Below are positions 37,326-38,381 of a DNA stretch of 64,000 bases, piece after piece (position 1 is the stretch's first letter; each line of letters starts with the position of its first letter). The stretch comes from Stegostoma tigrinum (taxonomy: Eukaryota): NCBI RefSeq assembly GCF_030684315.1, contig NC_081377.1, positions 44,930,017 to 44,994,016 of the forward strand, read 5' to 3'. The translations under genes were made by a program, and so were the position numbers. The notes beneath the pieces are model-generated. The model saw nothing but the letters and a program-made list of their open reading frames with translations. It did not search any database and was not told the origin of the DNA.

Positions 37326-38277
37326 CATAGTCTTACTGCTGCAGATAAATTCATTCTTTTTTTATTTTCAAAAATTGGTTTTGATTCGAGTGTTCTTGAC
37401 ACCTTTTTGTTTCTAGCTGTTGACTCAACAGGAGATCACTACGGTGTGAAATAGAAGACATAAGTTTTTTTTGAAAGGTTTAGAATACTTTTTATATTTT
37501 ATTCAACTTTGTTCTAGTCTCTTCTCCAAATACTGTTTAACTGTCTATTTTTGCACAAGATGTCCCATATTTGTCTTCCTCCATGATCTGAATTAGATGC
37601 TGCAGATTTACAGTTGCAGGCACTACAGGATGTCTTATTTTAGTGAATTAACGCAGGGCATGACATTTATTAAAGGATGCCTGCAAGCTGTAGGATGTCA
37701 CTCGCCAAATGAGCAGACCTTTGTTTTGTCCTTGTGCAGTGACTACTATTGTAGCATATTTTACTCCTCCACAGTAGAATACATCCTACTGGAGTGAAAC
37801 ACTTAAAAGATTGTTTTTTGACTAGCAATGTGACATTTATTTACGTTCATTTACAAGTCACAATTGAATTGTTTGCAGCATTTTGTTAAATATGATTTTA
37901 TTAATGAATGAGACCAGACTTAGATCAGAAAATAATTCTTGATTGAATTTCATGTGATAATAGGGTAGCTACAACCTAATAATATTTCGCGTCAGAATGT
38001 AATACTGTCTTTCTGTTCTGCATTTATTTTATACTATTATGATTCACTTAGAAAATTTGAATGAAAACCCTATTTTAGTAGTAATATTAAGAAATTTGCA
38101 GTTTTTGTAATAAGCTATATTTGATGTAGTTTTGACATCTTAAGCAATTTAATATAATACAAAAAGCAAATTTTCTAAGTTTTGGCAAAACAATGTTGTG
38201 GTTGAAAATGTGTATTGAAGATTGTAGGATGTGTTCGAAACCTGTGAAAGTGAAAAGCCCCCTTAACAGCTTAGCAT

Positions 38278-38381
38278 GTTTGAAGATGTTCGTGATGCAG
38301 AAGATGCACTCCACAACCTGGACCGGAAATGGGTCTGTGGCCGCCAGATTGAGATCCAGTTCGCCCAAGGTGATCGAAAAA
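38278..38381 (+). CDS. SRSF10: SRSF10 coding exon 3 ([34 protein letters not shown])
   Basis: 104 nt, in frame with exon 2 (CA|G TTT GAA); U12 branch CCTTAAC at 38261-38267; donor A|GTAAGT at 38382. Confidence 0.93.

What the first reader, a model, noticed from the sequence alone, without database searches (positions are those of the whole stretch)
38255..38285. SRSF10 minor intron appears to be AT-AT, not AT-AC
Seen: the donor is a perfect ATATCCTTT (27261) and the branch is CCCTTAAC (38260-38267). The only junction that restores the conserved ...AYIQ-FEDVRD requires the intron to end ...TTAGCAT|GTTTGAA. Known: the mammalian SRSF10 intron at this position is AT-AC, and U12 3' ends are chosen largely by distance from the branch point. 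AT at 38276-77 is about 11 nt from the branch A. Inference: the first exon base is G, so an ancestral AC|G was a CpG and deamination gave AT|G. An in-frame AG 3 nt upstream (38273-74) would give I-H-M-F-E instead of I-Q-F-E in RNP1. A weaker 3' end could retune this rate-limiting intron.
Basis: partly seen in the sequence, partly recalled or inferred. Interest (0 to 1): 0.7.

Follow-up and report, generated by a model that had tools for sequence, protein, structure and literature searches.

The report
SRSF10 minor intron ends in AT
RNA shows that the rare minor-spliceosome intron of the splicing regulator SRSF10 ends in AT here rather than the AC of mammals, but AT is a known tolerated ending that the human sister gene SRSF12 also carries at this intron, so it is likely an ordinary variant and not a new switch.

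Summary
Spliced contigs from the window's own organism and from a relative join exon 2 (ends 27260) to 38278, so the 11,017-nt intron is AT-AT. DNA of the own organism and of a second relative reads T at 38277. No junction at the AG 3 nt upstream was seen, but contigs drop rare isoforms.

It is not unusual. AT-AT is a known U12 subtype, with 8 human cases. Human SRSF12 is AT-AT at this intron. In metagenome contigs the same intron ends AC, AG, AA or AT (15, 4, 2 and 1 of 22 loci).

A CpG origin is plausible: the nearest outgroup has AC|G, and 5 of 8 human AT-AT ends precede G against 11 of 44 AT-AC ends. Its date is open. The upstream AG and a 358-nt poison exon are shared with human. 'Retuning' is unsupported: human AT-AT introns are not more retained than AT-AC ones.

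The scan noted the same ending before in another genome (e1-9873115). One untested idea remains: AT, unlike AC, may let the poison exon's GT donor splice onward.

The parts
22947..23011 (+). SRSF10 exon 1, coding part (MSRYARPPNSSLFVRNV...)
   Evidence: predicted from reading frame and GT donor
27156..27260 (+). SRSF10 exon 2 (first half of the RRM); ends in the CA of a split Gln codon
   Evidence: 3' end shown by loose ends of X15 and X14; RRM_1 hit
27261..27269 (+). U12 A-type donor ATATCCTTT
   Evidence: first 15 intron bases equal the human SRSF10 row; pairs with the genome's U11
27261..38277 (+). U12-type AT-AT intron, 11,017 nt
   Evidence: junction 27260/38278 in contigs of 2 of 2 RNA-type runs laid
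36847..37204 (+). Orthologue of the mammalian poison exon E3 (358 nt, stops in all three frames) nested in the minor intron
   Evidence: 74% over 368 columns with locus L049, E 5e-58; conserved acceptor; 362 nt in L049, 363 nt in human by coordinates; its splicing here was not tested
37205..37213 (+). Second, G-type U12 donor GTATCCTAC at the end of E3
   Evidence: same 9 bases in human and L049; use here not tested
38260..38267 (+). U12 branch motif CCCTTAAC; branch A likely 38266
   Evidence: pairs with the genome's U12 GUAAGG; branch nucleotide inferred from consensus
38273..38274 (+). In-frame AG 8 nt after the branch A; also present in human, where it is the annotated acceptor for the E3 GT donor
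   Evidence: no junction seen here
38276..38277 (+). AT intron end, 11 nt after the branch A; the only A-N dinucleotide at 9-17 nt
38278..38381 (+). Exon after the minor intron (mammalian exon 4; second half of the RRM), first base G
   Evidence: both ends shown by contigs
38811..38982 (+). Next coding exon
   Evidence: 5' end shown by loose ends; 3' end predicted
39058..39117 (+). Short RS exon (predicted)
   Evidence: GT-AG chain giving an open 242-aa protein
43946..44168 (+). Last coding exon, RS domain (predicted)
50460..50900 (-). PNRC2, convergent neighbour that supports SRSF10 orthology
   Evidence: PF15365; PDB 4b6h_C PNRC2 E 3e-30 over residues 1-125; the human SRSF10-PNRC2 pairing is recalled

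Best explanation
SRSF10's 11-kb second intron is spliced from an AT donor at 27261 to an AT end at 38277, likely by the minor spliceosome measuring 11 nt from the branch A, and the final T is likely a near-neutral product of CpG decay at an ancestral AC|G. U11 and U12 would bind the donor and the branch motif together. The 3' end is then taken as the A-N dinucleotide at the preferred distance, and A-type donors accept any last base. The AG 3 nt upstream is likely too close to the branch A (8 nt) to compete. The poison-exon module of mammalian SRSF10 is present in sequence, so expression is likely tuned there and not at the last base.
For: Shown: junction and genomic T in three organisms; U11 and U12 genes in the genome, pairing with the donor and branch motif; AT is the only A-N at 9-17 nt from A38266. 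From papers: optimum distance 11-13 nt (PMC3584512, passage); AT-AN ends splice productively, and AT-AC/AT-AT differences between human and mouse occur in ERCC5, Gpaa1, Zc3hdc6 and Slc9a8 (PMC1557818, passages and tables); 701 AT-AT introns, 0.95% of conserved animal minor introns (PMC10639083 supplement); human SRSF12 is AT-AT at the same exon border (PMC8280824 supplement). Comparative: of 24 metagenome loci, 22 are true exon matches, ending AC 15, AG 4, AA 2, AT 1. Five of them have AC|G, including the two closest to vertebrates. Control retention of the 8 human AT-AT introns is 0.02-0.23, against 0.71 for AT-AC SRSF10 in the same file.
Against: U12 dependence and the branch nucleotide are inferred, not assayed. 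Non-canonical ends often splice with reduced efficiency (PMC3584512), so a small cost is possible. In a second human file SRSF12's AT-AT intron shows retention 0.74, though on very few reads. In organism C the unspliced contig (depth 23) is deeper than the spliced one (13), but that run may contain DNA and contig depth cannot rank isoforms. Three of the 8 human AT-AT ends, and fish-like L032, have A and not G after the end. The CpG enrichment is marginal and rests on 44 of roughly 185 A-type rows. Contigs drop rare isoforms, so minor use of 38275 is not excluded.
Confidence: 0.8

Rival explanations
1. The T is old. It arose once in a stem vertebrate before SRSF10 and SRSF12 duplicated, and the AC of tetrapod SRSF10 is the derived state. 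This is a rival on history and is compatible with the mechanism above.
For: AT occurs in this gene, in fish-like SRSF10 locus L032 (which carries E3: alignment score 101 vs maximum 37 in 300 shuffles) and in human SRSF12. The window and human SRSF12 both have a 10-nt spacer starting AGCT after the branch motif, against 9 nt in human SRSF10. Unweighted parsimony on the last intron base plus first exon base needs 4 changes, against 5.
Against: With CpG changes weighted 0.3 or 0.1, an ancestral C|G with independent changes is cheaper (2.9 vs 3.3; 2.3 vs 3.1). Only 5 tips were used, their taxonomic labels are inferred, and the tree was assumed.
Confidence: 0.45
2. The AT end is a selected weakening that lowers productive splicing of SRSF10 and so resets SR-protein levels.
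For: The intron is regulatory in mammals (PMC7244321, Results part 1 of 3). AT-AC is more efficient than other AT-AN pairs (PMC1557818, passage). The T is shared by three related organisms.
Against: Human AT-AT introns are not more retained. The same intron tolerates all four endings. In X15 no unspliced contig crosses the acceptor while the spliced contig has depth 357 (absence from contigs is weak). The known control acts through competing donors and the E3 enhancer.
Confidence: 0.08
3. The last base gates which of two U12 donors can use the shared branch point. A GT donor can pair with AT but poorly with AC, so the AT end would let the poison exon's GT donor (37205) splice onward to 38278 and make a decay-bound message, whereas the mammalian AC would mostly block it.
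For: Both donors and E3 are conserved. GT-AT is productive (PMC1557818; PMC4176328) and GT-AC is disfavoured (PMC3584512). The E3 donor is rarely used in mouse. X15's spliced contig is 165 nt = 30+105+30, which implies a second path that leaves exon 1 with a non-G base and rejoins at 38278; E3 starts with A and ends with T (inference from k=31 graph geometry).
Against: No contig for that second path was listed. Exon 1 joined to 38275 or 38270, or unrelated forks, fit the geometry as well. Human annotation already lets the E3 donor use the AG 3 nt upstream. Conservation of the E3 donor could reflect U11 binding alone.
Confidence: 0.12
4. The T is an assembly error and the true end is AC.
For: None.
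Against: T is read in X1, X8 and X14, and four own-organism runs hold a share of 1.00 of the 110 sampled words.
Confidence: 0.01

Closest known systems
Human SRSF12 U12 AT-AT intron (chr6:89105531-89107153; PMC8280824 supplement)
   Same: Same exon border in the paralogue; AT donor, TTAAC branch motif, 10-nt spacer starting AGCT, ends CAT.
   Different: First exon base A, not G; no AG 3 nt upstream; 1.6 kb rather than 11 kb; no nested E3 intron appeared among the SRSF12 rows seen.
Human/mouse SRSF10 minor intron with nested poison exon E3 (PMC7244321; PMC8280824 supplement)
   Same: Orthologous intron; identical first 15 intron bases; E3 of 358 vs 363 nt with the GTATCCTAC donor; AG 3 nt before the end.
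   Different: Ends AC|A with a 9-nt spacer. The human downstream major donor lies at intron position 61. The window has no GT there and no donor with 6 or more of 9 U1-consensus matches before 27426, so that part of the circuit is unconfirmed.
A-type (AT-AN) U12 introns: human AT-AT cases KCMF1, HNRNPLL, UBR3, IK, SMC3, TCTN1, ERCC5, SRSF12; lineage differences in ERCC5, Gpaa1, Zc3hdc6, Slc9a8
   Same: Same subtype and the same kind of one-base difference between orthologues.
   Different: Here it falls in an intron with a known regulatory role that shares its branch point with a second, G-type donor.

Membership tests
U12-type intron, A-type, AT-AT subtype | 5' splice site RTATCCTT | tested here: met
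   ATATCCTTT at 27261; 7-bp duplex with the genome's U11
U12-type intron, A-type, AT-AT subtype | Branch motif CCTTRAY about 11-13 nt before the 3' end, no pyrimidine tract | tested here: met
   CCCTTAAC at 38260-67; 11 nt from A38266; duplex with the genome's U12
U12-type intron, A-type, AT-AT subtype | Spliced ends AT...AT shown in transcripts | tested here: met
   Loose ends of X15 and X14 at 38278
U12-type intron, A-type, AT-AT subtype | Organism encodes minor-spliceosome snRNAs | tested here: met
   U12 at 143 bits and U11 at 112 bits, both over cut-off; U4atac and U6atac not searched
U12-type intron, A-type, AT-AT subtype | Splicing depends on U11/U12/U6atac | not testable with these tools
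   Needs knockdown or in vitro splicing
SRSF10 (vs paralogue SRSF12) | RRM plus RS domain with the conserved exon borders | tested here: met
   242-aa open chain; RRM_1. Shared by both paralogues.
SRSF10 (vs paralogue SRSF12) | SRSF10-type intron start and nested E3 with GTATCCTAC donor | tested here: met
   15 of 15 intron bases match the human SRSF10 row; the SRSF12 row differs after base 9; E3 conserved
SRSF10 (vs paralogue SRSF12) | Neighbour is PNRC2 rather than PNRC1 | tested here: met
   Single-ORF 146-aa PNRC matching PNRC2 over residues 1-125; a second PNRC lies on C4. The human pairing of neighbours is recalled.
SRSF10 autoregulatory twintron (Meinke 2020) | Competing downstream major donor spliced to E3 | tested here: inconclusive
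   A stop codon follows the minor donor at 27304-06, but only weak GT candidates exist (27292, 27312) and no RNA was laid there
SRSF10 autoregulatory twintron (Meinke 2020) | E3 included and polyadenylated; SRSF10-dependent enhancer | not tested
   Sequence conserved. E3 nt 17-60 is only 59% purine; a purine-rich stretch lies further in.

The most novel reading that the evidence does not exclude
The last base of this intron acts as a compatibility gate between two minor-spliceosome donors sharing one branch point. AT in fishes lets the poison exon's GT donor splice onward into a decay-bound transcript, while a later return to AC in tetrapods closed that route and left polyadenylation in E3 as the off-switch.
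Probability: 0.12. Interest if true: 0.6.

Novelty: new member of a known kind. Interest (0 to 1): 0.25.

Why it matters
As it stands this is a modest but solid data point. An RNA-supported AT-AT end sits in a well-studied regulatory minor intron, which annotation pipelines are prone to misplace at the AG 3 nt upstream, giving a wrong I-H-M-F-E in the RRM. Across animals this one intron carries all four A-N endings, which makes it a natural series for measuring what the last base costs. If the two-donor gate were real, it would give a function to A-N variation that is now treated as tolerated noise.

Tried and rejected
Assembly error: rejected.

AG acceptors at 38274 and 38269: no loose end at either in 2 of 2 RNA-type runs. 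This shows presence of 38278, not absence of the others.

SRSF12 identity: rejected. No SRSF12 was found in G000. Exon searches gave only the window itself and hits of 47-53% identity that translate as other SR-type genes, and 200 kb around and downstream of the second PNRC on C4 held no match. Loss or an assembly gap is not distinguished.

No listed run was on record as RNA. X15 and X14 are treated as RNA because their contigs are spliced at two junctions.

L031 and L042 were dropped from the 24 metagenome loci as chance matches. L045 is cut after 7 residues and was left out of the tree. The 34-residue tree resolves only window+L032+L049+L034 (87%) and nothing inside that group.

A name search for L032's exon failed on length, and the Atlas was unavailable. 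Rfam found nothing in 22000-53000. The by-sequence look-up of earlier findings was empty.

My U2-acceptor scan missed the real E3 acceptor, and an early guess that E3 began near 36957 was wrong.

In the tally typed, one T was entered as C; the G count (11 of 44) is unaffected.

Papers not held: Dietrich 2001, Dietrich 2005, Levine and Durbin 2001. The zebrafish supplement of PMC9501576 was unreadable and may state the zebrafish srsf10 ends.

Full report
Observation. The gene runs on the + strand from ATG 22947 to a stop at 44168 and gives an open 242-residue RRM-RS protein when the second intron is taken as 27261-38277. The other four introns of that chain are GT-AG. Of 8 acceptors translated, only 38278 gives AYIQFEDVRD.

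Reads. A search with 38150-39250 listed 23 runs, none on record as RNA. I laid 4 of them on 38160-38480. X15 (own organism) and X14 (organism C) have contigs that begin on the stretch at 38278 and continue upstream into the last 30 bases of exon 2. X15 matches 27231-27260 exactly. Both also jump from 38381 to 38811, so they are spliced. The junction cannot slide by a base in either direction, so the intron is AT-AT. DNA contigs of the own organism (X1, possibly the assembly's source) and of organism B (X8), and an unspliced contig of organism C, read T at 38277 with no difference. No loose end lay at 38275 or 38270. Contigs drop rare variants, so this is not proof of absence.

Which gene. The first 15 intron bases equal those of human SRSF10 and differ from SRSF12 after base 9 (PMC8280824 supplement rows). 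The convergent neighbour is PNRC2 by Pfam and PDB. The intron holds the SRSF10 poison exon at 36847-37204: 74% over 368 columns with locus L049, a conserved acceptor, 358 nt against 362 nt in L049 and 363 nt in human, stops in all frames, and the GTATCCTAC donor at its end. No SRSF12 was found in this genome.

Mechanism. Shown: the ends, the motifs, and U11 and U12 genes whose 5' parts pair with the donor and branch motif. Inferred: the minor spliceosome binds donor and branch motif together and takes the A-N at the preferred distance. From A38266 the A-N dinucleotides lie at 3 (AG), 8 (AG), 11 (AT), 18 (AA), 19 (AG) and 21 (AT) nt. The optimum is 11-13 nt (PMC3584512, passage). A-type donors splice to any last base, AC best (PMC1557818 and PMC4176328, passages; PMC1635337, passage). 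The primary mutational papers were not held.

How common. Sheth 2006 lists 6 human and 6 mouse AT-AT introns and four AC/AT differences between orthologues. The de Wolf table has 8 human cases, SRSF12 among them. A pan-animal set has 701 (0.95%) against 16,044 AT-AC. A pattern scan of metagenome contigs that fixed the branch motif and exon start, but not the last intron base, gave 24 loci, 22 of them true. They end AC 15, AG 4, AA 2, AT 1. Many are near-duplicates: the 21 complete exons fall into 11 peptide groups (6 AC, 3 AG, 1 AA, 1 AT). These ends are inferred from protein conservation, without RNA, and the donor lies on the contig for only part of them. The AT case, L032, is an SRSF10 by its E3 remnant (score 101 vs shuffle maximum 37) and ends AT|A. 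Its label 'fish-like' is recalled. L049 ends AC|A, and its exon 2 end and E3 donor match the human rows.

Origin. L034 and L051 are closest to the vertebrate exon (27 of 34 residues; 87% support) and end AC|G, as do three other loci. Among human A-type introns, G follows the end in 5 of 8 AT-AT against 11 of 44 AT-AC rows read in two of about nine parts of the sheet (one-sided p 0.049), or 14 of 62 with rows seen incidentally (p 0.030). This fits CpG decay but is marginal. On five tips with an assumed tree, equal weights favour one change in a stem vertebrate with return to C in tetrapods (4 vs 5 steps). Cheap CpG changes favour an ancestral C|G with repeated changes.

Effect. Control retention of the 8 human AT-AT introns is 0.02-0.23 against 0.71 for SRSF10 in one file. 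In another file seven of them are 0.02-0.26 and SRSF12 is 0.74 on very few reads, against 0.38 for SRSF10. In mammals SRSF10 is tuned by competition between the minor donor and a downstream major donor, and by an enhancer in E3 (PMC7244321, passages and first third of Results; PMC8329584, passages). Nothing seen here points to the last base as a control point. The human downstream donor sits at intron position 61. The window has no GT there and only weak candidates nearby, so that arm of the circuit is unconfirmed.

The bolder reading. Two U12 donors share this branch point. In human the E3 GT donor is annotated to the AG 3 nt upstream and is rarely used. GT-AT is productive and GT-AC disfavoured, so an AT end could open E3-onward splicing at the optimal distance. 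X15's spliced contig is 165 nt, which fits 30 nt of exon 1, exon 2 and 30 nt of the next exon. In a k=31 graph that implies a second path leaving exon 1 with a non-G base and rejoining at 38278. E3 starts with A and ends with T. No such contig was listed and other paths fit, so this stays a lead (about 12%).

In print. Searches for SRSF10 with shark, zebrafish, U12, duplication and GT-AT terms (listings only) and for CpG with minor introns (listing only) showed no paper on an AT-AT end in fish SRSF10. PMC11347168 and PMC2831892 had no AT-AT passage. Intron databases and the unreadable zebrafish supplement may hold it. I had found the SRSF12 match before reading it, and it prompted the search for other fishes.

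Verdict. A real, RNA-supported AT-AT minor intron and a new member of a known kind. Interest 0.25.

Noticed in passing
window 36847-37213: The SRSF10 poison exon and its G-type U12 donor are conserved at 74% with a tetrapod-like locus inside an otherwise repeat-filled 11-kb intron. It sits about 9.6 kb from exon 2 here, against about 0.44 kb in human.
   Followed up: partly
G000:C4:40540001-40740000 (L008-L027): No SRSF12 beside the second PNRC gene, and none in genome-wide exon searches. SRSF12 may be lost in this lineage or missing from the assembly.
   Followed up: partly
window 27262-27430: No strong major-class donor downstream of the minor donor, where human has one at intron position 61. 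The candidates at 27292 and 27312 are weak, so the competing-donor arm of autoregulation may differ.
   Followed up: partly
run X15, records 6 and 7; window 23011 and 38278: Contig breaks imply a second transcript path from the end of exon 1 that rejoins at 38278 and skips exon 2. Its contig was not listed.
   Followed up: no
L038, L039, L043, L047, L044, L050: Invertebrate-type orthologues of this intron appear to end in AG or AA. L043 has an AT donor and an AG end 9 nt from the branch A, a pair described as disfavoured.
   Followed up: partly
L049 acceptor (contig - strand, match at 5001-5040): This tetrapod-like SRSF10 lacks the AG 3 nt upstream, so its E3 GT donor has neither AG nor AT available near the branch point.
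   Followed up: no
G000:C13:10669238-10669369 (L054): A second, weak U11 match (47.5 bits), likely a pseudogene.
   Followed up: no
window 19530-21800 (- strand) and elsewhere: A long LINE-like reverse-transcriptase ORF remnant and many retroelement fragments flank the gene (labels recalled from the translations).
   Followed up: no
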